Assembly (NCBI GenBank): GCA_964595645.1
Contig: CAZQQT010000002.1
Span: forward strand, 1-64,000
Length of the DNA: 64,000 bases
Origin: an uncultured Thermococci archaeon
Lineage (GTDB): Archaea > Methanobacteriota_B > Thermococci > Methanofastidiosales > B48-G16
Direction: 5' to 3'
Below are positions 19,035 to 57,500 of the stretch, piece after piece (position 1 is the stretch's first letter; every line of letters starts with the position of its first letter). A program made the translations under genes and the position numbers. The notes beneath the pieces were generated by a model that was given only the letters and a program-made list of their open reading frames with translations, did no database searches and was not told where the DNA came from.

Positions 19035-20183
19035 ATGGAAAATAAGCAATTGGTGTGGGTGGCGCTGACAGCATCTGCAATTGGTCTGATATCCCTTTTA
19101 ATACTCTCTGTTACAATGGAACCGGAGATAGTCTCCTCCCATCCTGAGGAACATGTGGGTGAGTATGTTGTACTTCAGGGTGTTGTTTCTCACACGTACG
19201 AGAAGTTCTTTGTGGTACATGGTGTGGAAGTATTTTCGGTGGACGAGATAGAAAGAGGAGATTATGTGGTTGTGAGAGGAACCTTAGAAAACACACCGAA
19301 AAAGTATGTAGATCGAGGTTTTCCTAAGTACCAACTGTACCCTGAGGATCTTGAGCATTATGTTCGTGGCATTTCGTTTTTTCCATGCTACGTAGAAAAC
19401 CATACTGTGAGTACAGTTAATGGAAGGTTTCAGTTTGATCGTTCCTTCTCATTTACCGGGTTTGGCGGAGTTCTTGGAGAATTAAAGGATAAAAATTTAA
19501 TTATAAGAGATATATTTCCTCTTCAGTCTGCGTTCATTGAAGGAAAAGTAAGAAAAGACGATGATCAATTTTATATTGGTGATACAAGACTTGTTCTCCC
19601 AGAAAACATTACTCCAGAATTTGGAGATAACCTCAAATGCTACGGATTAGCAGATGAAGAATTCCTCTGCCTCTACTGTCAGAACACAGGAAAATCGATA
19701 GAGAAAATATCCAATTTCATACCCCATAACGTCTACACAGTCAAAGGAGGGGTGGTGTCAAGGAGGTATTACTATGACGGGCACTTGATTACTCTTGAAG
19801 ATGCTACGGGAAAGGTCACTGCCTTCGTGGAGACTCCGGTATATTATGGGTACACTGTTGAAGTTTCTGGCATTTATGAAGAGTTCCGTGGGACATACAT
19901 GCTTCGAGGGGAGGCTACGGTGATCTCCAATAAGATCCACCGCTACGATCTTGCTGAAGAACTACCACAAGGTACTTTCTGGGCGAAGGGAACGGTAAAA
20001 AAGGTAGAAGATGTGCGAGGGCACCTCTATTTATATATGGAGGGACACAAAATATCTGTGTATGCTGACACTGTAAAGGACCTTCAGGACCATGGAATCG
20101 ATCTCTTCAATTCTCGAGGATCAACGCTCACTGTACTCCTCGAACATTCCGACGACCTGATCCTTGTGGACGTGAGAAAATGA
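19035..20183 (+). CDS. Membrane-anchored protein with multiple OB-fold-like repeats
   Basis: N-terminal TM; repeats such as GEYVVLQGVV, GDYVVVRGTL, YTVKGGV...LEDATGKV...GYTVEVSGIYEEFRG. Confidence 0.6.
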   Translation: MENKQLVWVALTASAIGLISLLILSVTMEPEIVSSHPEEHVGEYVVLQGVVSHTYEKFFVVHGVEVFSVDEIERGDYVVVRGTLENTPKKYVDRGFPKYQLYPEDLEHYVRGISFFPCYVENHTVSTVNGRFQFDRSFSFTGFGGVLGELKDKNLIIRDIFPLQSAFIEGKVRKDDDQFYIGDTRLVLPENITPEFGDNLKCYGLADEEFLCLYCQNTGKSIEKISNFIPHNVYTVKGGVVSRRYYYDGHLITLEDATGKVTAFVETPVYYGYTVEVSGIYEEFRGTYMLRGEATVISNKIHRYDLAEELPQGTFWAKGTVKKVEDVRGHLYLYMEGHKISVYADTVKDLQDHGIDLFNSRGSTLTVLLEHSDDLILVDVRK

Positions 20184-25875: not shown

Positions 25876-26583
25876 ATGCCCGTGATACAGGCGACAGATC
25901 TTGACAAATCTTACGGTCCAGTCCACGCGCTGAAGGAACTCAGCTTCGAGGTAGAAAAAGGGGAGTTCTTTGGTTTTTTAGGGGTGAACGGTGCGGGGAA
26001 AACGACGACAATCAAGATTCTCACCGGACAGCTCTCTCCAGACAAGGGGAGTGCAGAGGTGCTGGGCATGGATATACAGCATCCACGAAAAATAAAAGAG
26101 TCTGTGGGCATTGTTCCGGAAATAACATCTCTCCCTAGCTTTCTTACATCATACGAGTACCTTGAGTTCGTATGTAGGGTACGGGGTGTGGATACGGAGC
26201 GTATTTCCTTTTGGCTGGACTTTCTCAACCTCACCGATAAGAAGGACGATCTCTGTAGGGATCTCAGCAAAGGGATGAAACAGAAACTTTCCTTTGCGGC
26301 TGCATTTATTCACGAACCTCGGCTTGTCTTTCTCGATGAGCCGTTCAATGATATCGATCCGCTCATGCAGCGTACAATGAAAACATTTCTGAAAGAGTAT
26401 GTGGGGGACGGAGGCACGATCTTTCTTTCCACACATATTCTCGAGATCGCAGAAAAACTCTGTTCCTCCGCAGCAATCATTCATCACGGATCACTTCTCC
26501 AGAGAGGAACACTCCATGAGTTCTTGGAAGAACGAGAATCACTCGAAGAGGCCTTTATTTCACTGGTGGAATCTAATGATTAA
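25876..26583 (+). CDS. ABC transporter ATP-binding protein
   Basis: GVNGAGKTT, LSKGMKQK, FLDEP, STH. Confidence 0.93.
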   Translation: MPVIQATDLDKSYGPVHALKELSFEVEKGEFFGFLGVNGAGKTTTIKILTGQLSPDKGSAEVLGMDIQHPRKIKESVGIVPEITSLPSFLTSYEYLEFVCRVRGVDTERISFWLDFLNLTDKKDDLCRDLSKGMKQKLSFAAAFIHEPRLVFLDEPFNDIDPLMQRTMKTFLKEYVGDGGTIFLSTHILEIAEKLCSSAAIIHHGSLLQRGTLHEFLEERESLEEAFISLVESND

Positions 26584-27946
26584 ACGACTGTTGAACCTTC
26601 AAATAAAGGAAGAATGGCGGATGATGACTGCCTATTTCAGTTCAAAAGCGCTTATTCTCTTTCCGATTGTTCTTTTCGGAGCTGGGGTTTTTATGGGGAG
26701 ACTAATACCTATTATGGAGCAATCTTTCGATATGCACCAGTTCTATAGTATGGTACATCTTCTTCTAATACTCTATGGGATATTTGTTGGAGGATTTGGA
26801 TTTTTTGCGGAGGCAGTAGTGGAAACATGGTTTGGCGAGGCACGGTTGCTTATTCAAACCTACGATATTCTTCCTATTTCTTTCACACGGCTGTTCTCAT
26901 TGTTCTACCTAAAAGATATCATATATTACATGGTGCTCACTCTACTTCCCATTTTTTCTGGATTGTTTTTCTCGTTCAGTATCTCCTCCTCCCTTTTTCT
27001 TACCCTCCTTATTTCACTTACACTCGCTTTTCTCCTCGGTATCTCAACGAGCTTTTTCCTTTCTTCTCTCTACGTACGAAACCGATGGAGCGTTCTTCCG
27101 CCGCTCGTTCTCCTTGGGTATTGGGGTACTACCGGTTCCTACGAGACGCTCCCACCACTCGCCTTTTTCTTCCAACGAGATCTTTTCCATGCACTGAGTT
27201 CGGTCATACTGTTTTTCGTGTTTTCTGCGATTTCTCTCTACATTTCTATACCCATAGAACGATATAGAATGCACAACTTTTCGCCTTCTACCTTATTCTC
27301 CCGTATCGATACCCTTCTTGCGAAGGAGATCGTTGAGGTGCGGAGGAGTGGGACGTGGCGCATACTCCTTACAGCATACCTCTTTCCACTTCTTTTCCTC
27401 TACAGTATTTTCCACTTCTCCGGAAAACTTCTTCAGATCCAGTTTACGCTTCCACTCCCCTTCTACGCTGTTTTCATCGGATACCTGAGTACACTGGTTT
27501 ACAGCTGGCTCAACAACATCGATACACCTGCACACCTCCATACACTCCCCATTACCGTGTCTGCAGTAATCAAACGAAAACTTGCACTGTTAGCAGTTGT
27601 TTCCTTCTCTGTTGGAACAGGCTATCTTCTCTTCCTCGGCTATACACTCAACGATTTCACAGCCGTGCCTATCTCGCTTTTTGCCATGGTTGCCGTCACT
27701 CTCTACGTTGCGCTGGTTACTGCCTATCTCTGCGGCCTTCACCCCAACACGTACCTTTTCAACGGTGTGATATTGATGAAGTATCTTGCTACGACACTCC
27801 CTGTGCTCATTACACTCACCCTCCTTTCTCTCATGAACGAGTCCGTCGCGCTTGTACTTCTCTCTGGTGGCATCTTCCTTCTCGCAGCTCCGATCTATCG
27901 TGGACTGGAGATCAAGTATGGCGTGTCAGAGGGATTTCAGAAATAG
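26576..27946 (+). CDS. ABC transporter permease (multi-TM)
   Basis: About 12 hydrophobic segments; start reassigned to ATG 26576, overlapping the ATPase stop. Confidence 0.75.
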   Translation: MIKRLLNLQIKEEWRMMTAYFSSKALILFPIVLFGAGVFMGRLIPIMEQSFDMHQFYSMVHLLLILYGIFVGGFGFFAEAVVETWFGEARLLIQTYDILPISFTRLFSLFYLKDIIYYMVLTLLPIFSGLFFSFSISSSLFLTLLISLTLAFLLGISTSFFLSSLYVRNRWSVLPPLVLLGYWGTTGSYETLPPLAFFFQRDLFHALSSVILFFVFSAISLYISIPIERYRMHNFSPSTLFSRIDTLLAKEIVEVRRSGTWRILLTAYLFPLLFLYSIFHFSGKLLQIQFTLPLPFYAVFIGYLSTLVYSWLNNIDTPAHLHTLPITVSAVIKRKLALLAVVSFSVGTGYLLFLGYTLNDFTAVPISLFAMVAVTLYVALVTAYLCGLHPNTYLFNGVILMKYLATTLPVLITLTLLSLMNESVALVLLSGGIFLLAAPIYRGLEIKYGVSEGFQK

Positions 27947-28004
27947 CGTATCTGCTTGATTCGTATAAAAGAATATTTTTATATCCTTCTCCTGAAGGTT
28001 GCAC

Positions 28005-28616
28005 ATGACGGAACATCAGATACCCTCCTCTCTTGCGTGTATTATTTTTGACAGTGTACGGGAGCAGATGGGAGAAAATGGATTAAAGCTACTGTTGCGG
28101 CAGGCAGGACTGGAACGATATATTGATAATCCCCCGGAGGATAATGATTCCCCCTCCATTGCCATGGACGAATTTAAACGTGCATTTCGTGCGGTACATC
28201 GTGTGTTTGGGGAGAAAGCTGCACGACCTCTTCTTTTGCGGTGGGGGGAGCTGACATTTACCTACGCTTTAGAGAATAAGCCGCGTTTGTTTGGTCTTGT
28301 TGGGCCGGTAACAAAACTTATGACACAGGAACAGAAAGAACGTTTTATCCTGAAACGAGTTCTTAAAGAATCCGAAAATCTCTACAATGTGCCACATATT
28401 ATGACAGAGGACAGTGAATATTTTTATGTGGAGATACAGAACTGCTTTTACTGTGGTGATATGGATACTGACATACCGATATGTCACTCTCCAAAGGGAT
28501 CCTGGCTTGCCATGATGAGATGGATTACGGGGAAAGAGCACGAGATTACCGAGATCGCATGTCAGGCTATGGGAGATGAGTCGTGCACATTCAGAATCAA
28601 GAAGGAAGGCACATAG
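28005..28616 (+). CDS. Stand-alone V4R (4-vinyl reductase) domain protein
   Basis: NCFYC...PICH...ITEIACQAMGDESCTF. Confidence 0.85.
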   Translation: MTEHQIPSSLACIIFDSVREQMGENGLKLLLRQAGLERYIDNPPEDNDSPSIAMDEFKRAFRAVHRVFGEKAARPLLLRWGELTFTYALENKPRLFGLVGPVTKLMTQEQKERFILKRVLKESENLYNVPHIMTEDSEYFYVEIQNCFYCGDMDTDIPICHSPKGSWLAMMRWITGKEHEITEIACQAMGDESCTFRIKKEGT

Positions 28617-28667
28617 AAAGGCCCCCTGTTTAAATAAGTGCGTTGCTCATACTATAGACTGTGATAT

Positions 28668-29927
28668 ATGAGGAAATACTCAATGAATGATGAGAAACAA
28701 AACATTCTCATGGTTTCTGTTCATGGTGATCCTGCAGCAGAGATCGGATCCGAGGAGCAGGGTGGCCAACCTATCTACATAAAAAACATTTCTAGACTCC
28801 TCTCCGACGAGTACATGATTGATATTTTTACCCGAAAGAAAAAGGAATCTGAAGACACTGTGACTCCCCTGTCCCCTGATGTGAACGTAGTGAGAATAGA
28901 GGCTGGTCCTGTTGAGTTTGTACCTAAAAAAGAGCTCTATACACACATCAATGAGTTTTTTATGGGGGTAGTACGATGGAGCAAAGAGCACGATAAGCGA
29001 TACTCCTTAATCCACTCACACTACTGGTACTCCGGTATTGTTGCACTCAAACTGCGGGACGCACTGGAATTTCCTGTAGTTCACAACTGTCATTCGCTTG
29101 GAAGAATAAAGTATGATGTGCTGAACAAGAAAAAGCCCCCGTATGCTGATATGCGGCTGTTGGAAGAGGAAGTAATACTGAAAAGAGCTAATGCAATAGT
29201 CGCATCGACACCCCAAGAGGTAAAGAACATTCTCGATCTTTACGATGTAAGCGGAGAGAACATCGAATTAATACGTGCAGGCGTGGACAAAAGCCTTTTT
29301 AAACCAATAAATAAGGAAAAAGCAGTTGAAAAGACAGGAATGGATTTTGAGAACATTCTTCTCTTTGTTGGGAGAATCACCAAGGCGAAGGGGCTCTCCA
29401 TACTCGTTAAAGCATTAGAAAAAGTTAAAAAACAATTTGATAGTGAGGTAAAACTTCTTGTCGCGGGAGGCGATGTTTCTGGTGTGATGCATTCAGAGGA
29501 AGAAGAACGACAAAAACAGAAACTGAAAAAGATGCTTACGGAGCTGGAACTTGAAGACAATGTGAAATTTTTGGGACCTGTGGAACGGGAGGAACTCCCA
29601 TACTATTACTCGCTGGCAGATGTATGTGTGGTTCCCTCACGGTACGAAACCTTTGGTCTTGTTGCAGTGGAAGCCATGGCTTGCGGTGTGCCGGTGGTTG
29701 CATCGAAGGTGGGAGGTCTCGAGCACACGATTAAACATGGATACTCTGGACTCCATTTTGTTCCCGGAAAGGCGGATTCTCTGGCTGAATCAATATTGAA
29801 TCTTCTAAAAAACTCTCAAAAATTAAAAAAGATGCGAATGAATGCTCGAAAAAGAGCGGCTAGACGATTTAGTTTGGAGAGGACAGTGGAACAGATAAAG
29901 AAATTGTATAGATCCTTAATTTTCTGA
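28668..29927 (+). CDS. GT4 glycosyltransferase, sucrose-phosphate-synthase-like (GT-domain-only type)
   Basis: SVHGDPAAEIGSEEQGGQ, HSHYW, HSLG, ASTPQE, VGRITKAKG, PSRYETFGLVAVEAMACG; adjacent SPP-like gene. Confidence 0.72.
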   Translation: MRKYSMNDEKQNILMVSVHGDPAAEIGSEEQGGQPIYIKNISRLLSDEYMIDIFTRKKKESEDTVTPLSPDVNVVRIEAGPVEFVPKKELYTHINEFFMGVVRWSKEHDKRYSLIHSHYWYSGIVALKLRDALEFPVVHNCHSLGRIKYDVLNKKKPPYADMRLLEEEVILKRANAIVASTPQEVKNILDLYDVSGENIELIRAGVDKSLFKPINKEKAVEKTGMDFENILLFVGRITKAKGLSILVKALEKVKKQFDSEVKLLVAGGDVSGVMHSEEEERQKQKLKKMLTELELEDNVKFLGPVEREELPYYYSLADVCVVPSRYETFGLVAVEAMACGVPVVASKVGGLEHTIKHGYSGLHFVPGKADSLAESILNLLKNSQKLKKMRMNARKRAARRFSLERTVEQIKKLYRSLIF

Positions 29928-29935
29928 GGTATGCG

Positions 29936-30631
29936 ATGGAGTATATTCTTATCTGCGATCTGGATGGCACTCTTACCGGTGACAGAGATGCGATCCTGGA
30001 GTTCAATAGGGTACTCTCTTCCTACCGTGGAGAGTTCTATCTGGTGTACGCTAGTGGAAGGTACAAGAAATCGATGATCTCGCTTATACATGAGGAGGAT
30101 CTGCTGGTACCGGATGCAATTGTCGCGAATGTGGGCACTGAAATTTATTATGCGCCTCACTGGACACCGGATCGTGCCTGGGAGAAGAGACTCGCCGATC
30201 AGTGGTCCGAGGACGAGATCGTCCAAGTCCTCACACAGTTTGAGATACAGCCCCAGTTGTATACCAAACGGTTTGTACTATCTTACTACGTTGACGACAG
30301 GGACAAGGTAGAGGAAATAGAAAAAAGCATGCGAGACTACGAAGTAAACGTTATCTATACAAAAGGGCACTGTCTTGATGTACTTCCTGTGGCTGCAGGG
30401 AAAGGATCCGCCGCGATGTATTTAAAACATAAGCTTTCTCTCCCAACCATCTGCTGTGGAGATTCTGAAAATGATGTGAGCATGTTGAAGAAAGGGGATC
30501 ATGGTATTCTAGTAGGAAACGCAGCTGAAACGATAAAGGAAACAATGAGAGCCTATTCTCATGTGTGCATCTCGGATTCGTGTCATGCGCATGGTGTCCT
30601 TGAAGGATTACAGCACCACGGTATCCTCTAG
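29936..30631 (+). CDS. HAD-IIB phosphatase, sucrose-phosphate-phosphatase-like
   Basis: DLDGTLTGD, LVYASGR, PDAIVANVGTEIY, LDVLP..AGKG, CGDSEND, VGNA. Confidence 0.8.
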   Translation: MEYILICDLDGTLTGDRDAILEFNRVLSSYRGEFYLVYASGRYKKSMISLIHEEDLLVPDAIVANVGTEIYYAPHWTPDRAWEKRLADQWSEDEIVQVLTQFEIQPQLYTKRFVLSYYVDDRDKVEEIEKSMRDYEVNVIYTKGHCLDVLPVAAGKGSAAMYLKHKLSLPTICCGDSENDVSMLKKGDHGILVGNAAETIKETMRAYSHVCISDSCHAHGVLEGLQHHGIL

Positions 30632-48451: not shown

Positions 48452-49303
48452 ATGGTACTCATGAAGGAATCGGTTACTCAATCCAGAGAAGAGCGAGTTG
48501 AGAAGCTCAATGCGACTGCACGCACGATCCGACGACACATTATTCGCGACATTTACGAAGCAGGTTCAGGGCACCCAGGCGGTTCTCTTTCTTCAACGGA
48601 GATTATTACAGCTCTCTATTTTCATCTCATGAACCATGATCCCGATAACCCTGATTGGGAGGAGAGAGATCGGTTTGTGTTGAGTAAAGGACACAGCTGT
48701 CCGGCGCTGTATGCTGCATTAGCAGAGGCTGGGTATTTTAATGTGGACGATCTCTTGGCGCTGAGAAAGCTCGGTTCACATCTTCAGGGTCATCCCTCGA
48801 TGAGAACACCAGGCATCGATATCTGCACGGGTTCGTTGGGACAGGGACTCTCGATTGCCGTGGGCATGGCACTCGGCCTTCGTCTTGACAGCAAGCTCTC
48901 CAGAGTCTACGTGCTTTTGGGGGATGGAGAGATGCAGTGCGGCCAGGTGTGGGAAGCTGCGATGGCAGCTGCTCATTACAATTTGGGCAATATCACCGCC
49001 TTTATTGATAGGAACAGACTCCAGATCGATGGGAGCAGTGAGCGTGTCATGTCGTTAGAACCGTTAGGGTTTAAGCTGAAGTCATTCGGATGGCACGTGA
49101 CGGAGATCAACGGCCACAATTTCAATGAGATCATCGATGCTGTGGAGAAGGGGAAGAAGATCAATGGAGAACCAAAGGCGATAATCGCCCATACAACCAA
49201 AGGAAAGGGAGTTTCGTTCATGGAAGGATCCGTTGCCTTCCATGGGAAACCCCCGAACGATGAAGAATTCGAGCGGGCAATGAAGGAACTGGGAGGCGAG
49301 TGA
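48452..49303 (+). CDS. Transketolase, N-terminal subunit
   Basis: [38 protein letters not shown] motif. Confidence 0.95.
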
Positions 49304-50248
49304 ATGTTTGACGAGTACAAGTATCCACGGGTAGCGTACGGAGAAACACTCCGCGAACTGGGGAGAGAAAGAAAGAATATCGTTGTACTTGATGCCGATC
49401 TTTCTGCATCCACAAAAACGAAGTTTTTTGGCAATATGTTTCCCGATAGATTCTTCAATATGGGTGTGGCTGAACAGAACATGATGTGTGTGGCAGCAGG
49501 TCTCGCTACCACAGGAAAAACGGTGTTTGCCTCGTCCTTTGCAATGTTTGCGACGGGTCGAGTGTACGATCAGATACGACAGTCCATTGCGTATCCGAAA
49601 CTCAATGTGAAGATTGTAACTACTCACGCAGGAATCACGGTGGGTGGCGATGGTGCGTCTCACCAGATGACCGAGGATATCGCCCTGATGTCTGCACTTC
49701 CCAATATGCGTGTCGTCGTTCCTGCAGATTATCAAGCCACAGGAAAGATCATCAGGACACTCGCGGACGAGGATGGACCAGCATACGTGCGAATGGGGAG
49801 AAGTAAGGTGCCTACCATCTACGATGATTCTTACGAGTTTTCTGTTGGGAATGCAACGGTGGTGAGGGAGGGTGACGACATCTCTCTTATCGCAATTGGC
49901 ATTATGGTTTCTGAGGCCCTTATCGCGGCGGAACAATTAAAAGAGAAGGATATCTCCGCACGCGTTATCGATATGAGCACGGTGAAACCCGTTGATCAGG
50001 CGTGCATTCTGGAGGCTGCCAGAGAAACAGGTGCCATTGTGACTGCAGAGGAACACAACACCACGATGGGCATGGGATCTATCATTTCCTCTGTACTTGC
50101 CGAGAACTACCCGGTGCCGCTGATTAAATGTGGCATTCCCGACGTGTTCGGTGAAAGCGGTGAGTATCGTGAGTTAATGGAAGCATACGGATTAACTGCG
50201 GATAATATTGTCACGCAGACCATGAAAATACTCAAACGAAAGGAGTGA
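49304..50248 (+). CDS. Transketolase, C-terminal subunit
   Basis: DADLSAST, GVAEQNM, DGASHQ, AEEH, DVFGESG. Confidence 0.95.
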   Translation: MFDEYKYPRVAYGETLRELGRERKNIVVLDADLSASTKTKFFGNMFPDRFFNMGVAEQNMMCVAAGLATTGKTVFASSFAMFATGRVYDQIRQSIAYPKLNVKIVTTHAGITVGGDGASHQMTEDIALMSALPNMRVVVPADYQATGKIIRTLADEDGPAYVRMGRSKVPTIYDDSYEFSVGNATVVREGDDISLIAIGIMVSEALIAAEQLKEKDISARVIDMSTVKPVDQACILEAARETGAIVTAEEHNTTMGMGSIISSVLAENYPVPLIKCGIPDVFGESGEYRELMEAYGLTADNIVTQTMKILKRKE

Positions 50249-50253
50249 GAAGC

Positions 50254-51147
50254 ATGAAAATTTTTATTGATACGGCAAAATTGGATGAAATCCAGGAGGC
50301 GAACTCATGGGGGATTGTGGATGGCGTGACCACTAATCCCTCATTGATTAAGAAGGCCATGGATGCACTGGACGAGCCGGTCGCCATGGAGGAGTATATC
50401 GCGTCGATATGCGCTGAAGTAGACGGGCCGGTGAGTCTGGAGACAATGAGCAGGACAACTGAGATGATGGTAGACGAAGCGGAAACGCTGTACGAGACGT
50501 TTAACGATGTGCACAACAACGTGGTGGTGAAGATCCCCGTGAACACTGCCATGGAAGAGGACCATGAGAACTACGAAGGAGTGAAGGCAATAAAAATCCT
50601 GGAAGACGAGGGAATCCCCATTAATGCCACGCTGGTGATGTCGCCGAACCAGGCACTGCTCGCCGCCAAGGCAGGTGCTTCCTACGTCAGTCCCTTCTTG
50701 GGAAGAGTCGATGACTATATACGGAGTAGAATGGGACTGGAACGTGGCGAGGACTACGCGAAGACGGCGTACTTCGATGAAGATATCTTTGAGACCATCA
50801 GGGTAGAAAAAAGACGGGATATGCTCCGAAAGAGACCTCACGAGCAGTTAGGGAAGTTATATCTCGATGAAAGGATTACCCCGCTTCCCACTGAGGTGAA
50901 CAGCGGTGTGGATCTCGTGCGAAAAACAAAAAGAATTTTTGAAAATTACGAATTTTCTACTGCCATCATTGCTGCGAGCATCCGGAACGCACGCCAGGTG
51001 GTGGAGGTTGCAGAAATCGGCGCCGAGATCGCGACCATCCCATTTAACGTGATCTCCGATATGATCTGGCACTACAAAACGAGGGAAGGAATGAAGGCAT
51101 TCACAGAGGATGTCATTCCCGAGTATAAAGTACTGTTCGAGGAATAA
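50254..51147 (+). CDS. tal: Transaldolase (TalC/Fsa family) with a large insertion
   Basis: FIDTA, GVTTNPSL, VSLE (Glu), VVVKIP (Schiff-base Lys), YVSPF (Phe), AASIR. Confidence 0.88.
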   Translation: MKIFIDTAKLDEIQEANSWGIVDGVTTNPSLIKKAMDALDEPVAMEEYIASICAEVDGPVSLETMSRTTEMMVDEAETLYETFNDVHNNVVVKIPVNTAMEEDHENYEGVKAIKILEDEGIPINATLVMSPNQALLAAKAGASYVSPFLGRVDDYIRSRMGLERGEDYAKTAYFDEDIFETIRVEKRRDMLRKRPHEQLGKLYLDERITPLPTEVNSGVDLVRKTKRIFENYEFSTAIIAASIRNARQVVEVAEIGAEIATIPFNVISDMIWHYKTREGMKAFTEDVIPEYKVLFEE

Positions 51148-51148
51148 T

Positions 51149-51817
51149 ATGGTACAGATTGCTCCCTCTATCCTCTCTGCAGATTTCTCCCGTCTCGGCG
51201 ACGAGGTGAGAGACGCGGAGCGTGGAGGTGCGGACATGATCCACATCGACGTCATGGACGGTCACTTTGTCCCCAACCTCACCATCGGACCCGTGGTGGT
51301 AGAGGCCATTGCGCCTCTTGTTACTATTCCGATCGATATCCATCTTATGATCGAGCACCCGCAGAATACCATCGACGAGTTCATCGATGCATTGGGGGAC
51401 CGAGATGTGTCCAACGATTATCTCTCTATCCACGCGGAGTCGTGTATCCATCTGGACCGATTGGTGCACATGGTGAAGGATCGTGGGGTGAAGGTTGGTG
51501 TCGCGTTGAATCCGTCTACGTCGTTGTCAATGATCGAGTGGCTTCTCGACGAGATCGATCTCATCGTGATCATGACTGTCAACCCGGGGTACAGCGGACA
51601 GTCGTTCATTGAGGGGATGCTGCCGAAGATACGGAGAACGCGGGAACTCGTAGGAGATAAGGAGATCGAGATTCTTGTCGACGGAGGAGTGAAGGCCCAC
51701 AACGCGAAGCGTATCGTCGAGGCTGGCGCGTCGATTCTGGCCGCGGGCTCGGCAGTGTTTAACAAAGAAGCATCTGTAGAACATAATATCCGAGGAATCC
51801 GGGAAGCTGCGAAATAA
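51149..51817 (+). CDS. rpe: Ribulose-phosphate 3-epimerase
   Basis: IAPSILSADF, HIDVMDGHFVPN, DIHLM, MTVNPG, VDGG. Confidence 0.96.
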   Translation: MVQIAPSILSADFSRLGDEVRDAERGGADMIHIDVMDGHFVPNLTIGPVVVEAIAPLVTIPIDIHLMIEHPQNTIDEFIDALGDRDVSNDYLSIHAESCIHLDRLVHMVKDRGVKVGVALNPSTSLSMIEWLLDEIDLIVIMTVNPGYSGQSFIEGMLPKIRRTRELVGDKEIEILVDGGVKAHNAKRIVEAGASILAAGSAVFNKEASVEHNIRGIREAAK

Positions 51818-55387: not shown

Positions 55388-56641
55388 ATGAACATCTCAA
55401 TCATTGGTACAGGCTACGTCGGGCTCGTGACGGGAGCGTGTCTTGCCAATCTCGGCCATACCGTAATCTGTGTTGATATCATACAAGAGAAGGTGGATCT
55501 TATTAATGATAAACAGTCACCAATTTACGAAGAGGGACTGGAGGAAATCCTGCAGGAGACAGTAGGGACAACGCTGTCAGCCACCACGGACCTCAAAAAA
55601 GCTGTCCTTCAGTCTGATATCACGTTTATTTGTGTAGGCACGCCCTCAAAGGAAGATGGATCCATCGATGTCACGGATGTAGCACGCGCTGCAGGGCAGG
55701 TAGGTGCTGCACTCACAGAAAAGAAGAAATACCATCTTGTTGTGGCAAAATCCACGGTTGTTCCGGGAACAACAGAGAAAATAAAAAAAATCATAGAAGA
55801 AACCTCAGGAAACCAACACTTCGGCATCTGTATGAATCCCGAGTTTCTTAGAGAGGGAAAAGCAGTCCACGATTTTATGCATCCCGATCGGATTATAATC
55901 GGCGCCGATGAGAAAAAAAGCGGCGATATGCTCGGCGAACTCTACAAAGATTTTTCATGCCCGATCCTCCGCGTTGATATACGAACGGCAGAGATGATAA
56001 AGTACGCGTCCAACGCGTTTCTCGCAACGAAAATCTCGTTTATCAATGAGATCGGGAACATCTGCAAGAAACTTGGTATTGAAGTGTACGATGTCGCCGA
56101 AGGTATGGGGTTAGACTCGCGGATCTCGCCGAAGTTCCTCCGAGCGGGCTGTGGATTCGGTGGATCATGTTTTCCTAAGGATGTGAAGGCACTGATCGCG
56201 AGAGCGAAGGAGCTGAACTACGATCCCACGCTCCTCGAAAGTGTGATGGACGTGAATGAACGGCAGCCGTTGCGCATGATCGAGCTGCTGAAAAAGAAAA
56301 TTGGATCGCTTGAACATAAAAATATCGGTGTGTTGGGCCTCGCTTTCAAGCCCGAGAGCGACGATATCAGAGAATCCCCCGCGATCCCAATCATCCAGAA
56401 GTTAATAGGCGAACATGCGAATGTCTACGCGTACGATCCTAAAGCGATGGACAATATGAAGGAATATTTCCCAAACATCATGTATAAAGAGAACGCGCAG
56501 AGCGTGATAAACAAAACTGAGGATGTGTTAATAGTTACAGCATGGCAGGAGTTTAAAAATCTCGATTATAAAAAGAAAATAGTAATCGATGGTAGAAAAG
56601 TCCTCGAGAAAAGAAACAACTACGAGGGGATATGTTGGTGA
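55388..56641 (+). CDS. ugd: UDP-glucose 6-dehydrogenase
   Basis: GTGYVG, CVGTP, NPEFLREG, KYASNAFLA, GFGGSCFPKD, AFKP. Confidence 0.93.
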   Translation: MNISIIGTGYVGLVTGACLANLGHTVICVDIIQEKVDLINDKQSPIYEEGLEEILQETVGTTLSATTDLKKAVLQSDITFICVGTPSKEDGSIDVTDVARAAGQVGAALTEKKKYHLVVAKSTVVPGTTEKIKKIIEETSGNQHFGICMNPEFLREGKAVHDFMHPDRIIIGADEKKSGDMLGELYKDFSCPILRVDIRTAEMIKYASNAFLATKISFINEIGNICKKLGIEVYDVAEGMGLDSRISPKFLRAGCGFGGSCFPKDVKALIARAKELNYDPTLLESVMDVNERQPLRMIELLKKKIGSLEHKNIGVLGLAFKPESDDIRESPAIPIIQKLIGEHANVYAYDPKAMDNMKEYFPNIMYKENAQSVINKTEDVLIVTAWQEFKNLDYKKKIVIDGRKVLEKRNNYEGICW

Positions 56642-56645
56642 GACG

Positions 56646-57500
56646 ATGAAAGCGGTCATTCCTGCGGCGGGGCTGGGCACGCGGTTTCTTCCCGCAACAA
56701 AGGCAATGCCCAAGGAGATGCTCCCTGTGGTGGACAAACCGACGATCCAGTACGTGGTAGAGGAGGCCATCGCCTCGGACATTGGGGATATCCTCATTAT
56801 CACGGGGAGAGGGAAACGGGCCATCGAGGATCACTTCGATAAAAGCTTTGAGCTGGAGTATATTCTTGGGGAGAGAAACGAGATCGATCTGTTAACCAAA
56901 GTAAAAAATATCTCAGATCTCGCAGATATCCACTACATCCGACAGAAAGAACAGAAAGGCTTAGGAGATGCGGTCTACTGTGCACGGAAGTTCATCGATA
57001 ACGAACCCTTCGCCGTCCTCCTCGGTGATGATATCGTCCACGCTCCAACACCGTGCACACATCAATTGCTGGATGTATACAGGAAGTACCACACGTCAGT
57101 GGTAGCGCTGGAGGAAGTACCGAAGGAGCAAGTATCACAGTATGGAATAGTACAAGCTGAGAAGGTAAACGATAGACTCTACAAGCTTCAGGATGTAATA
57201 GAGAAACCTACCATGGAAGAAGCGCCGTCCACGCTCTCCGTTCCTGGACGTTACATCCTCACACCCACAATTTTTGAGTGCATCGAGAAAACGACCCCGG
57301 GGAAAGGCAATGAGATCCAGCTCACCGATGCATTGCGATTATTGCTGGATCAGGAAGAGATCTATGGATACACATTTGAGGGAAGACGGTACGACGTGGG
57401 AAATAAGGTTGGGTATATCAAAGCGACACTCGAACTCGCGCTGGAACGGGAGGAGTTAGGAGAAAAGGTAAGAGAGTATTTGGAGGAAATAAAAAAGTAG
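56646..57500 (+). CDS. galU: UTP-glucose-1-phosphate uridylyltransferase
   Basis: KAVIPAAGLGTRFLPATKAMPKEMLP, EKP, EIQLTDA. Confidence 0.95.
   Translation: MKAVIPAAGLGTRFLPATKAMPKEMLPVVDKPTIQYVVEEAIASDIGDILIITGRGKRAIEDHFDKSFELEYILGERNEIDLLTKVKNISDLADIHYIRQKEQKGLGDAVYCARKFIDNEPFAVLLGDDIVHAPTPCTHQLLDVYRKYHTSVVALEEVPKEQVSQYGIVQAEKVNDRLYKLQDVIEKPTMEEAPSTLSVPGRYILTPTIFECIEKTTPGKGNEIQLTDALRLLLDQEEIYGYTFEGRRYDVGNKVGYIKATLELALEREELGEKVREYLEEIKK

What the first reader, a model, noticed from the sequence alone, without database searches (positions are those of the whole stretch)
28668..30631. Cyanobacterial-type sucrose-phosphate synthase + phosphatase operon in an archaeon
Seen: a GT4 gene starting SVHGDPAAEIGSEEQGGQ, followed 8 nt later by a HAD-IIB phosphatase with SPP-type motifs (DLDGTL.GD, LVYASGR, PD.I..NVGTEIY). 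Established: SPS+SPP make sucrose from NDP-glucose and fructose-6-P in plants, cyanobacteria and some other bacteria; the N-terminal motif resembles Nostoc/Anabaena GT-only SPS as I recall it. I know of no biochemically shown archaeal sucrose synthesis. galU and fbp in this window could supply both substrates. Inference: sucrose, or mannosylfructose via the related MfpsA/MfppA pair, as a compatible solute.
Basis: partly seen in the sequence, partly recalled or inferred. Interest (0 to 1): 0.78.

Follow-up and report, generated by a model that had tools for sequence, protein, structure and literature searches.

The report
Archaeal sucrose-type synthase–phosphatase gene pair
An uncultured sediment archaeon carries a tightly coupled two-gene cassette, a sugar-joining enzyme plus a sucrose-phosphatase-type enzyme, that is shared almost unchanged among anaerobic archaea and bacteria and most likely makes sucrose, though the sugar itself has not been shown.

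Summary
A 419-aa GT4 glycosyltransferase (28668-29927) is followed 8 nt later by a 231-aa HAD-IIB phosphatase of the sucrose-6-phosphatase family (29936-30631).

The pair is not a chance neighbourhood. In all 48 related loci that have downstream DNA, the phosphatase follows the GT directly, and no other neighbour is conserved.

The GT belongs to a very tight family, 52-87% identical across archaea and bacteria. That family is a deep lineage of its own. It is about 34-35% identical both to the characterised cyanobacterial GT-only SPS (TeSPS, 6KIH) and to MshA-like enzymes. Trees and AU tests cannot tell which is its sister, so "cyanobacterial-type" is not supported.

Four things favour sucrose:
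- The partner is SPP-type, with 6 of 7 sucrose-6-P-binding residues.
- The GT keeps the fructose-contacting GGQ motif, where MshA-like enzymes have GGM.
- The closest relatives carry a third gene, a GH100 (neutral invertase family) hydrolase with both catalytic residues.
- galU and a transketolase/transaldolase operon lie in the window.

Against this, family-invariant changes in the acceptor loop leave room for a different disaccharide.

I put sucrose at about 0.5 and a two-step glycoside-phosphate route at about 0.9. This scan has noted other archaeal SPS/SPP-like pairs before, on other DNA and in other families.

The parts
28629..28636 (+). TTTAAATA, a TATA-box-like element about 35 nt before the first ATG; candidate archaeal promoter of the operon
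   Evidence: Read directly from the sequence. Inference only; no archaeal promoter tool was available.
28668..29927 (+). GT4 retaining glycosyltransferase of the 'IGSEEQGGQP' family. Predicted NDP-hexose:sugar-phosphate glycosyltransferase, most likely a sucrose-phosphate synthase. The likely real start is 28683, preceded by GAGG.
   Evidence: Searches give the best PDB match, 6KIH TeSPS, at 256 bits. Catalytic and phosphate-binding residues H142, E327, E335, R236, K241, K87, Y119 and R163 are kept. Family tree.
29926..29930 (+). GAGGT Shine-Dalgarno sequence overlapping the GT stop codon, 5 nt before the phosphatase ATG; implies translational coupling
   Evidence: read directly from the sequence.
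29936..30631 (+). Unidomain HAD-IIB phosphatase of the sucrose-6-phosphatase (S6PP/SPP) subfamily. Predicted to dephosphorylate the GT product.
   Evidence: PF05116 scores 196 bits. TIGR01485 scores 154 (cut-off 183.65) and TIGR01482 scores 109.7 (cut-off 107.15). The best PDB match is 1S2O, Synechocystis SPP, at E 1.7e-28. D8, D10, T12, S40, G41, Q107, K156, D176, N179 and D180 are invariant in 34 orthologues.

Best explanation
This is a self-contained, translationally coupled two-gene operon for a non-reducing disaccharide, most probably sucrose.

Step 1 (inferred): the GT4 enzyme transfers glucose from an NDP-glucose onto fructose-6-phosphate, giving sucrose-6-phosphate. UDP-glucose is available through the galU in the window. 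Step 2 (inferred): the SPP-type HAD phosphatase removes the phosphate, which makes the synthesis irreversible.

The cassette was acquired horizontally. Within the host's phylum it is found only in the host's own genus. It circulates among anaerobic sediment archaea and bacteria, and the product probably serves there as a compatible solute or stress solute. In the closest relatives a GH100 invertase-family hydrolase completes a make-and-break module. This genome lacks that gene and any other recognisable sucrose-cleaving enzyme.

Shown here: gene structure, family membership at the fold and superfamily level, conserved catalytic and phosphate-binding residues, strict synteny, and distribution. 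Inferred: the identity of the donor, the acceptor and the product.
For: - Strict GT-phosphatase adjacency holds in 48 of 48 loci with downstream DNA, and no other neighbour is conserved.
- The phosphatase matches SPP models far better than any other HAD-IIB model: 154 and 143 bits, against 73 for the next. Among solved structures only Synechocystis SPP matches strongly.
- S6P-binding residues D11, T41(S), G42, Q107, K163 and N189 are kept (with residues from bioRxiv 10.64898/2026.09.11.751015). They are invariant in orthologues.
- The best solved-structure match of the GT is TeSPS, for which activity has been demonstrated (PMC7264703).
- The fructose-contacting Gln51 is kept as GGQ. It is Q in 100% of the family and 97% of cyanobacterial SPS, and M in 87% of the MshA-like group.
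- Genuine cyanobacterial GT-only SPS give the same NCBIfam profile as this protein (MshA model 292-309 bits, SPS_N 142-164), so the 'MshA best hit' is not evidence against SPS (anchor).
- Holding the family together with the cyanobacterial SPS group gives a slightly better likelihood than the free tree.
- A GH100-like gene follows the phosphatase by 8 nt in L018, and also lies directly downstream, on the same strand, in L014/15, L044 and L060. It appears to lie on the contigs of the closest GT relatives, judged by matching contig lengths. Its profile matches only GH100 invertases over the full length (E 1.3e-19). The residues aligned to the catalytic Asp and Glu are invariant (residues from PMC6995568).
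- galU and a transketolase/transaldolase operon are in the window.
- Sucrose was reported as the dominant disaccharide of an ANME-2 enrichment, with the producer unknown (PMC13597711). Family members are labelled Methanosarcinales.
Against: - The GT is no closer to SPS than to MshA-like proteins (34.7% against 34.2% median identity).
- It fails every curated cut-off.
- Its position in the tree is an unresolved polytomy, and sisterhood with the MshA-like group is not rejected (p 0.27).
- Of nine positions that separate cyanobacterial SPS from MshA-like proteins, the family is SPS-like at 2, MshA-like at 4 and different from both at 3.
- Family-invariant changes sit in or beside the acceptor loop and at sites conserved everywhere else: Q31 for Ala48, P35 for the near-universal Asn, A240 for Arg253, R203 for Pro, H363 for Leu, and a 3-residue insert.
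- The SPP residue Lys116 aligns to Val.
- The phosphatase is below the SPP equivalog cut-off.
- The genome has inositol-1-P synthase, so an inositol-phosphate acceptor is available.
- The GH100 gene is absent from this genome and from most family loci.
- There is no biochemical evidence for any member of the family.
Confidence: 0.52

Rival explanations
1. The route has the same two steps but a different product: an undescribed or rare glycoside. The GT would use another phosphorylated acceptor (another sugar phosphate, glycerate-P or glycerol-P) or another NDP-hexose. The SPP-like enzyme would be tuned to that product.
For: - The family is a separate deep clade with invariant substitutions in the acceptor loop (Q31, P35) and at otherwise universal sites (R203, H363, N73).
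- SPP Lys116 is not kept.
- All curated equivalog cut-offs are missed.
- Sister clades are fused to SIS isomerase domains, which points to diverse sugar-phosphate acceptors in this GT group.
- Unidentified hexose disaccharides dominate some archaeal alkane-oxidising cultures (PMC13597711).
Against: - The SPP-type partner keeps 6 of 7 S6P-binding residues.
- The GGQ motif is kept.
- A GH100 hydrolase sits in the closest relatives. From my recollection, all characterised GH100 enzymes are sucrose-specific.
- MPGP and phosphoglycolate phosphatase models score only 40-49 bits.
Confidence: 0.22
2. It is a mannosylfructose (or other hexosyl-fructose) pathway analogous to Agrobacterium MfpsA/MfppA: GDP-mannose plus fructose-6-P, then dephosphorylation.
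For: From my recollection, MfppA also belongs to the S6PP family and the logic of the pair is identical. The donor specificity of the GT cannot be read from its sequence.
Against: - The GT is remote from the TIGR02472/2R60-type SPS group, to which (from my recollection) MfpsA is related: 141 bits against a cut-off of 576, and 83 bits to 2R60.
- The GH100 partner in relatives points to an alpha-glucoside.
- No MfpsA sequence was available, so no direct comparison was made.
Confidence: 0.1
3. It is an MshA-like enzyme making GlcNAc-inositol-phosphate (or another glycosyl-inositol-P), which the phosphatase then dephosphorylates. The product could be a solute or a lipid head-group precursor.
For: - The best NCBIfam model is MshA at 299 bits.
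- The family is MshA-like at K87, H118, T181 and S/T328.
- Sisterhood with the MshA-like clade is not rejected.
- The genome has inositol-1-P synthase.
- JGI annotates many members as D-inositol-3-phosphate glycosyltransferase.
Against: - The score is below the MshA cut-off of 462.5. True cyanobacterial SPS give the same MshA score, while the MshA-like group scores 403-436.
- The motif is GGQ, not GGM.
- The tree places the family outside the 99/99-supported MshA-like clade.
- The partner is SPP-type.
- A GH100 gene sits in relatives.
Confidence: 0.07
4. The GT is an ordinary cell-envelope glycosyltransferase, and its adjacency to a HAD phosphatase has no functional meaning.
For: Generic annotations read 'glycosyltransferase involved in cell wall biosynthesis'. 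A PMT_2-like membrane protein lies convergent downstream.
Against: - The pair shows 48 of 48 synteny across domains, in unrelated surroundings.
- The two genes are translationally coupled.
- The phosphate-binding K, Y, S and R residues of phospho-acceptor GT4 enzymes are conserved.
- There is no membrane or lipid-carrier context.
Confidence: 0.03

Closest known systems
Unidomain (GT-only) cyanobacterial sucrose-phosphate synthase: Thermosynechococcus Tll1590/TeSPS (PDB 6KIH) and the Nostoc/Microcystis SPS group
   Same: It has the same GT-B GT4 architecture and size (about 420 aa) and the same N-terminal HGDP...GGQ..Y loop. The catalytic His, Glu and Glu, the GR....KG diphosphate motif and the basic phosphate-binding residues are conserved. 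TeSPS is the best solved-structure match (256 bits). Both work with a separate unidomain SPP.
   Different: Identity is only about 35%, no closer than to MshA-like proteins. The family forms a separate clade. It has family-invariant Q31, P35, N73, R203, A240 and H363 and a 3-residue insert where SPS and all other relatives are conserved. It occurs in anaerobic non-phototrophs of both domains. No activity has been shown.
Sucrose-6-phosphate phosphatase (Synechocystis SPP, PDB 1S2O; TIGR01485/PF05116)
   Same: It is a unidomain HAD-IIB enzyme with all HAD motifs and 6 of 7 S6P-binding residues. SPP is by far its best family and structure match.
   Different: It scores 154 bits against an equivalog cut-off of 183.65. 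Lys116 aligns to Val, although an invariant K111 and a K/R112 lie nearby. The Bathyarchaeota-type orthologues carry an insert of about 25 residues.
MshA, D-inositol-3-phosphate glycosyltransferase (C. glutamicum, PDB 3C48/3C4V; TIGR03449)
   Same: It shares the fold and the phosphate-binding positions (K78, Y110, T134, R154 correspond to K87, Y119, S143, R163). MshA is the highest-scoring NCBIfam model.
   Different: The score is below the cut-off. The motif is GGQ where MshA has GGM. The family lies outside the MshA-like clade, and its partner is an SPP-type phosphatase.
GH100 alkaline/neutral invertases (Anabaena InvA 5GOO and InvB 5Z73; Arabidopsis CINV1 6TTJ); relevant to the third gene found in related loci
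   Same: The profile matches these proteins only, over the full length. The residues aligned to the catalytic Asp and Glu are invariant.
   Different: The similarity is distant: the single sequence matches only at E 8e-9 and the profile at 1.3e-19. Substrate specificity is untested. The gene is absent from the window's genome.

Membership tests
Sucrose-phosphate synthase (EC 2.4.1.14), TeSPS/cyanobacterial unidomain type | GT-B GT4 fold with Glyco_transf_4 and Glycos_transf_1 domains | tested here: met
   Pfam PF00534 scores 172.6 bits and PF13439 scores 67.7 bits.
Sucrose-phosphate synthase (EC 2.4.1.14), TeSPS/cyanobacterial unidomain type | Catalytic His158 and Glu331, with Glu339 and Arg249 (PMC7264703) | tested here: met
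   They correspond to H142, E327, E335 and R236, mapped on the 6KIH alignment, and are conserved across all groups aligned.
Sucrose-phosphate synthase (EC 2.4.1.14), TeSPS/cyanobacterial unidomain type | Fructose-6-P contacts: Ala48 and Gln51 in the acceptor loop; Arg105, Arg178 and Arg253 on the phosphate | tested here: inconclusive
   Gln51 corresponds to Q34 and Arg178 to R163, both kept. Arg105 is Lys87. Ala48 is an invariant Gln31. Arg253 is an invariant Ala240, with K239 adjacent. The neighbouring Asn is an invariant Pro35.
Sucrose-phosphate synthase (EC 2.4.1.14), TeSPS/cyanobacterial unidomain type | Falls inside the clade of characterised SPS | tested here: inconclusive
   The family is a separate 100/100 clade in a polytomy. 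Held together with the SPS group, lnL is +0.47 and p-AU 0.56. Held together with the MshA-like group, lnL is -8.1 and p-AU 0.27.
Sucrose-phosphate synthase (EC 2.4.1.14), TeSPS/cyanobacterial unidomain type | Reaches the curated SPS model cut-off (TIGR02472) | tested here: not met
   It scores 141.5 bits against 576. The control cyanobacterial unidomain SPS also fail at 142-164 bits, so the model does not cover this SPS type.
Sucrose-phosphate synthase (EC 2.4.1.14), TeSPS/cyanobacterial unidomain type | Forms sucrose-6-P from NDP-glucose and fructose-6-P | not testable with these tools
   This needs an enzyme assay.
Sucrose-phosphate phosphatase (EC 3.1.3.24), S6PP / HAD-IIB | Pfam S6PP and NCBIfam SPP-subfamily cut-offs | tested here: met
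   PF05116 scores 196.4 against 20.3. TIGR01482 scores 109.7 against 107.15.
Sucrose-phosphate phosphatase (EC 3.1.3.24), S6PP / HAD-IIB | SPP equivalog cut-off (TIGR01485) | tested here: not met
   It scores 154.4 against 183.65.
Sucrose-phosphate phosphatase (EC 3.1.3.24), S6PP / HAD-IIB | HAD catalytic motifs I-IV | tested here: met
   D8-x-D10-x-T12, S40, K156 and GD176xxN179D180 are invariant in 34 orthologues.
Sucrose-phosphate phosphatase (EC 3.1.3.24), S6PP / HAD-IIB | S6P-binding residues Asp11, Thr41, Gly42, Gln107, Lys116, Lys163 and Asn189 (Synechocystis numbering) | tested here: inconclusive
   Six of seven are kept, counting Thr to Ser as kept. Lys116 aligns to Val114, with an invariant K111 and a K/R112 nearby.
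MshA (EC 2.4.1.250) | TIGR03449 equivalog cut-off | tested here: not met
   It scores 299.1 against 462.5. Representatives of the MshA-like clade score 403-436.
MshA (EC 2.4.1.250) | GGM(N) acceptor-loop motif and membership of the MshA-like clade | tested here: not met
   The family has GGQP where the MshA-like group has GGM in 87% of members. It lies outside the 99/99 clade, although the AU test does not reject sisterhood.
Mannosylfructose-phosphate synthase/phosphatase (MfpsA/MfppA) | Orthology to Agrobacterium MfpsA and MfppA | not tested
   No reference sequence could be obtained with the tools. There is indirect evidence only: the GT is remote from the TIGR02472/2R60 SPS type.

The most novel reading that the evidence does not exclude
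The 'IGSEEQGGQP' GT family, with its dedicated SPP-like phosphatase, may make a disaccharide or glycoside other than sucrose. Such a compatible solute would be undescribed and shared by horizontal transfer among Bathyarchaeia, Methanosarcinales, Hydrothermarchaeota, this lineage, Atribacterota, Omnitrophota and sulfate reducers of anoxic sediments. It could be one of the unidentified hexose disaccharides reported from archaeal alkane-oxidising cultures. The remodelled acceptor loop (Q31, P35) and the new basic residue R203 would then be the specificity determinants.
Probability: 0.2. Interest if true: 0.8.

Novelty: new variant of a known kind. Interest (0 to 1): 0.55.

Why it matters
To my knowledge, and as far as the literature searches here show, sucrose synthesis has not been demonstrated biochemically in any archaeon. 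A 2026 study found sucrose to be the main disaccharide of an ANME-2 methane-oxidising enrichment and could not name the producer or the genes (PMC13597711).

This cassette is a concrete, testable candidate. It is a third lineage of SPS-like enzymes that current annotation calls 'glycosyltransferase' or 'MshA', and the SPS and SPP equivalog models tested here score it below their cut-offs. It is widespread in anoxic sediment archaea and bacteria and is clearly exchanged between domains.

If it makes sucrose, the range of that sugar extends into the dark anaerobic biosphere, and a marker gene becomes available for it. If it makes something else, it defines a new compatible-solute pathway.

Tried and rejected
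Gene neighbourhoods of named MAG proteins could therefore not be fetched. I used a metagenome scan instead.
It returned only the congener plus unrelated GT4 genes, so no named cyanobacterial, actinobacterial or Agrobacterium reference loci could be obtained. No MfpsA/MfppA comparison was possible.
- The listing of cluster members works at 90% clusters and gave few names.
- The ESM Atlas returned only generic GT4 clusters.
- The analysis of specificity-determining positions and both AU tests were inconclusive about SPS or MshA affinity.
- The test 'no inositol-phosphate is available' failed, because the genome has an inositol-1-P synthase.
- Base composition gives no sign of recent transfer: GT GC 0.426, SPP 0.468, genome 0.432.
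- The InvA structure paper (PMC5207263) is not held, so sucrose-contact residues of GH100 beyond the two catalytic ones could not be checked.
- I did not run structure prediction. Fold-level matches to 6KIH or 3C4V would not separate the hypotheses, and model coordinates are not returned.
Full report
**What is there.** The first, 28668-29927 (+), encodes 419 aa with the quoted N-terminal motif. The second, 29936-30631 (+), encodes 231 aa with the quoted HAD motifs.

- The first gene has Glyco_transf_4 and Glycos_transf_1 domains. The second matches the Pfam S6PP family over its full length (196 bits).
- A TATA-like TTTAAATA lies about 35 nt upstream of the first gene.
- A second ATG at 28683, preceded by GAGG, matches the database gene call of 414 aa.
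- The GT stop codon overlaps a GAGGT Shine-Dalgarno sequence 5 nt before the phosphatase ATG.
- The phosphatase stop codon overlaps the end of a convergent gene.

This is therefore a two-gene, translationally coupled operon.

The host is an archaeon. The window has an A-type ATPase subunit and DUF5828, and the congener MAG is labelled 'Methanobacteriota archaeon'. The genome is 1.97 Mb and 99.96% complete, and no McrA was found.

**The pair is a conserved cassette.** A metagenome scan with a family alignment returned 55 loci of the same GT family, and a congener MAG locus adds one more.

- In all 48 loci with DNA downstream of the GT, the phosphatase orthologue follows at 8-24 nt. Two larger apparent gaps are frameshifted GT copies. 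The remaining 8 loci end at the contig edge.
- Clustering of all neighbouring ORFs shows that only these two genes are shared. The next most frequent neighbour, a universal stress protein, occurs in 9 loci.
- The GT is unusually conserved, at 66-73% identity to most loci. The phosphatase is less so, at 40-51%.

**Distribution.**

- At 50% clustering of 1.8 billion proteins the whole family collapses into one representative (642 bits). There is then a gap to 296 bits and 39% identity.
- Named members come from Bathyarchaeota, Methanosarcinales, Hydrothermarchaeaceae, Omnitrophota, Atribacterota and Desulfobacteraceae.
- In the host's own phylum (133 species genomes), only its own genus carries the cassette.
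- Composition is not atypical.

The cassette is thus mobile across domains, but it was not acquired recently here.

**What the GT is related to.** NCBIfam puts MshA first (299 bits, cut-off 462.5) and the SPS N-domain model third (141.5, cut-off 576).

That ranking is misleading. Cyanobacterial GT-only SPS homologues give the same profile: MshA 292-309 bits and SPS_N 142-164. These are a Microcystis protein that UniRef names sucrose phosphate synthase, and Nostoc alr3370, which matches TeSPS at 480 bits. Representatives of the MshA-like clade score 403-436 on the MshA model.

Against solved structures the order is as follows:
- TeSPS (6KIH): 256 bits
- C. glutamicum MshA: 206 bits
- H. orenii SPS (2R60): 83 bits

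TeSPS is a demonstrated SPS (PMC7264703). I mapped its residues on the printed alignment.

- His158, Glu331, Glu339, Arg249, Arg178 and the fructose-contacting Gln51 are all kept, as H142, E327, E335, R236, R163 and Q34.
- Arg105 is Lys87.
- Ala48 is Gln31, Arg253 is Ala240 and Pro332 is Thr328.
- The phosphate-binding set of MshA (K78, Y110, T134, R154) is also matched (K87, Y119, S143, R163).

I infer from this that the acceptor is phosphorylated, which fits the phosphatase partner.

**Phylogeny.** A 51-sequence IQ-TREE analysis (LG+C20 PMSF) gave these results.

- The family is a 100/100 clade.
- The 'GGM' MshA-like group is a 99/99 clade that excludes the family.
- The family sits in an unresolved polytomy with the cyanobacterial SPS group and several uncharacterised 'GGQ' clades.
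- One of those clades contains a GT fused to an S6PP domain. Another contains GTs fused to SIS sugar-phosphate isomerase domains.

Forcing the family together with the cyanobacterial SPS group gives a marginally better likelihood than the free tree (p-AU 0.56). Forcing it together with the MshA-like group costs 8.1 lnL units but is not rejected (p 0.27).

Median identity of the window protein is 34.7% to cyanobacterial SPS, 34.2% to MshA-like proteins and 34.7% to the other GGQ clades. At nine positions that separate SPS from MshA-like proteins, the family is SPS-like at 2 (including GGQ), MshA-like at 4 and different from both at 3.

The family also has invariant residues of its own at sites conserved everywhere else: P35, N73, R203, H363 and a three-residue insert. 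The GT alone therefore does not settle the acceptor. 'Cyanobacterial-type' overstates the relationship.

**The phosphatase.** Its two best NCBIfam models are the SPP equivalog (154.4, cut-off 183.65) and the SPP-like domain of bidomain SPS (143.2). It passes the SPP-subfamily model (109.7 against 107.15). The next unrelated model scores 73.

Synechocystis SPP is the only strong match among solved structures (E 1.7e-28; the next is 6e-9).

Of the seven S6P-binding residues listed from the SPP crystal structure (bioRxiv 10.64898/2026.09.11.751015), six are present and invariant in 34 distinct orthologues. Lys116 aligns to Val, with an invariant Lys111 and a Lys/Arg112 nearby. All HAD catalytic motifs are intact.

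**A third gene in the nearest relatives.** In L014/15, L018, L044 and L060, a roughly 415-aa gene follows the phosphatase on the same strand. In L018 the gap is 8 nt.

- It passes the Pfam GH100 alkaline/neutral invertase model (68.6 bits, cut-off 23.6).
- A 30-sequence profile matches only GH100 invertases over the full length (InvB 5Z73, E 1.3e-19). The next hit is a partial glycogen-debranching match at 1e-6.
- The residues aligned to the catalytic Asp (InvB D189) and Glu (E415) are invariant (D167, E382; catalytic residues as cited in PMC6995568).
- Members of this hydrolase cluster sit on contigs whose lengths match those carrying the closest GT relatives, at 71-75% identity.

GH100 enzymes are known as sucrose-specific. 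This is the most specific pointer to sucrose, but the similarity is distant. The window's genome lacks the gene. It also lacks sucrose synthase and any GH13 enzyme.

**Substrate supply.** galU is confirmed in the window at 56589-57500 (392.5 bits against 326.8), next to a UDP-glucose dehydrogenase. PF01950 is absent from the genome, and the IMPase/FBPase-type gene is on another contig. A split transketolase, a transaldolase and a ribulose-P epimerase at 48452-51817 can provide fructose-6-P. The genome also has inositol-1-P synthase, so substrate availability does not exclude an MshA-like reaction.

**Literature and earlier notes.** Full-text searches found no report of archaeal SPS/SPP biochemistry. 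PMC13597711 (2026) reports sucrose as the dominant disaccharide in an ANME-2a/2b/2c plus Seep-SRB1a enrichment. It states that the producers of such disaccharides are unknown.

Earlier notes of this scan describe other archaeal SPS/SPP-like modules in different families, and SPP-GH100-like fusions in bacteria. An archaeal SPS/SPP-like pair is therefore not unique, and the SPP-GH100 link has been seen independently. I treated those notes as leads only.

**Verdict.** The general mechanism is well supported (about 0.9): an NDP-sugar plus a phosphorylated acceptor gives a glycoside phosphate, which a dedicated SPP-type phosphatase then dephosphorylates. Sucrose as the product is the single most likely outcome (about 0.5). 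It rests mainly on the partner phosphatase, the GGQ motif and the GH100 neighbour.

The main alternative is a different glycoside made by a remodelled acceptor site (about 0.2). Mannosylfructose (0.1) and an MshA-like reaction (0.07) follow.

The family is a distinct, unannotated, cross-domain lineage. I class it as a new variant of a known kind, of moderate interest, and directly testable by expressing two small genes.

Noticed in passing
window 48452-51817 (+): This is a non-oxidative pentose-phosphate operon. It holds a split transketolase (N-terminal half at 48452-49303, C-terminal half at 49304-50248), a transaldolase/F6P-aldolase family gene (50245-51147) and a ribulose-phosphate 3-epimerase (51110-51817).
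   Followed up: partly
proteins P0144, P0215, P0229 (related GT4 clade, not in the window): A sister clade of the GT family consists partly of fusions of about 620 aa that join the MshA/SPS-like GT4 to a C-terminal SIS_2 (GmhA-like sugar-phosphate isomerase) domain. The function is unknown. The fusion suggests a glycosyltransferase that makes its own ketose- or aldose-phosphate acceptor.
   Followed up: partly
L018:5846-7102 and relatives P0397-P0516: A large family of distant GH100 (neutral invertase) relatives occurs in non-phototrophic bacteria (Desulfobacterales, Gammaproteobacteria, Polyangiales) and in archaeal or bacterial sediment contigs. The residues aligned to the catalytic Asp and Glu are invariant. 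Annotations vary between 'glycogen debranching enzyme' and 'GH100 family protein'.
   Followed up: partly
window 27999-28616 (+): A 205-aa protein with a C-terminal V4R domain (weak MsvR/BchJ-like matches) ends 51 nt upstream of the GT on the same strand. It could be a small-molecule-sensing regulator of the operon. It is not conserved in the other loci; several of those have an ArsR-type HTH gene plus a DUF2153 gene upstream instead.
   Followed up: partly
window 26399-27946 (+) and 19035-20183 (+): These are two long ORFs (515 aa and 382 aa) with no Pfam or NCBIfam match. The first overlaps the end of an ABC-transporter ATPase gene (25876-26583) and may be its permease.
   Followed up: no
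whole genome G000 (search tallies): The host's phylum in the genome collection has only 133 species, 97 of them in one family, and the host lacks McrA. This pattern fits the Thermococci/Methanofastidiosales-type phylum, with the host as a non-methanogenic sediment lineage. That is an inference from the counts only; the tools gave no names.
   Followed up: no
L052, L058, L049, L037: Several metagenomic copies of the cassette have the GT or the phosphatase split into two ORFs. These could be frameshifts or assembly errors, or occasional decay of the cassette.
   Followed up: no
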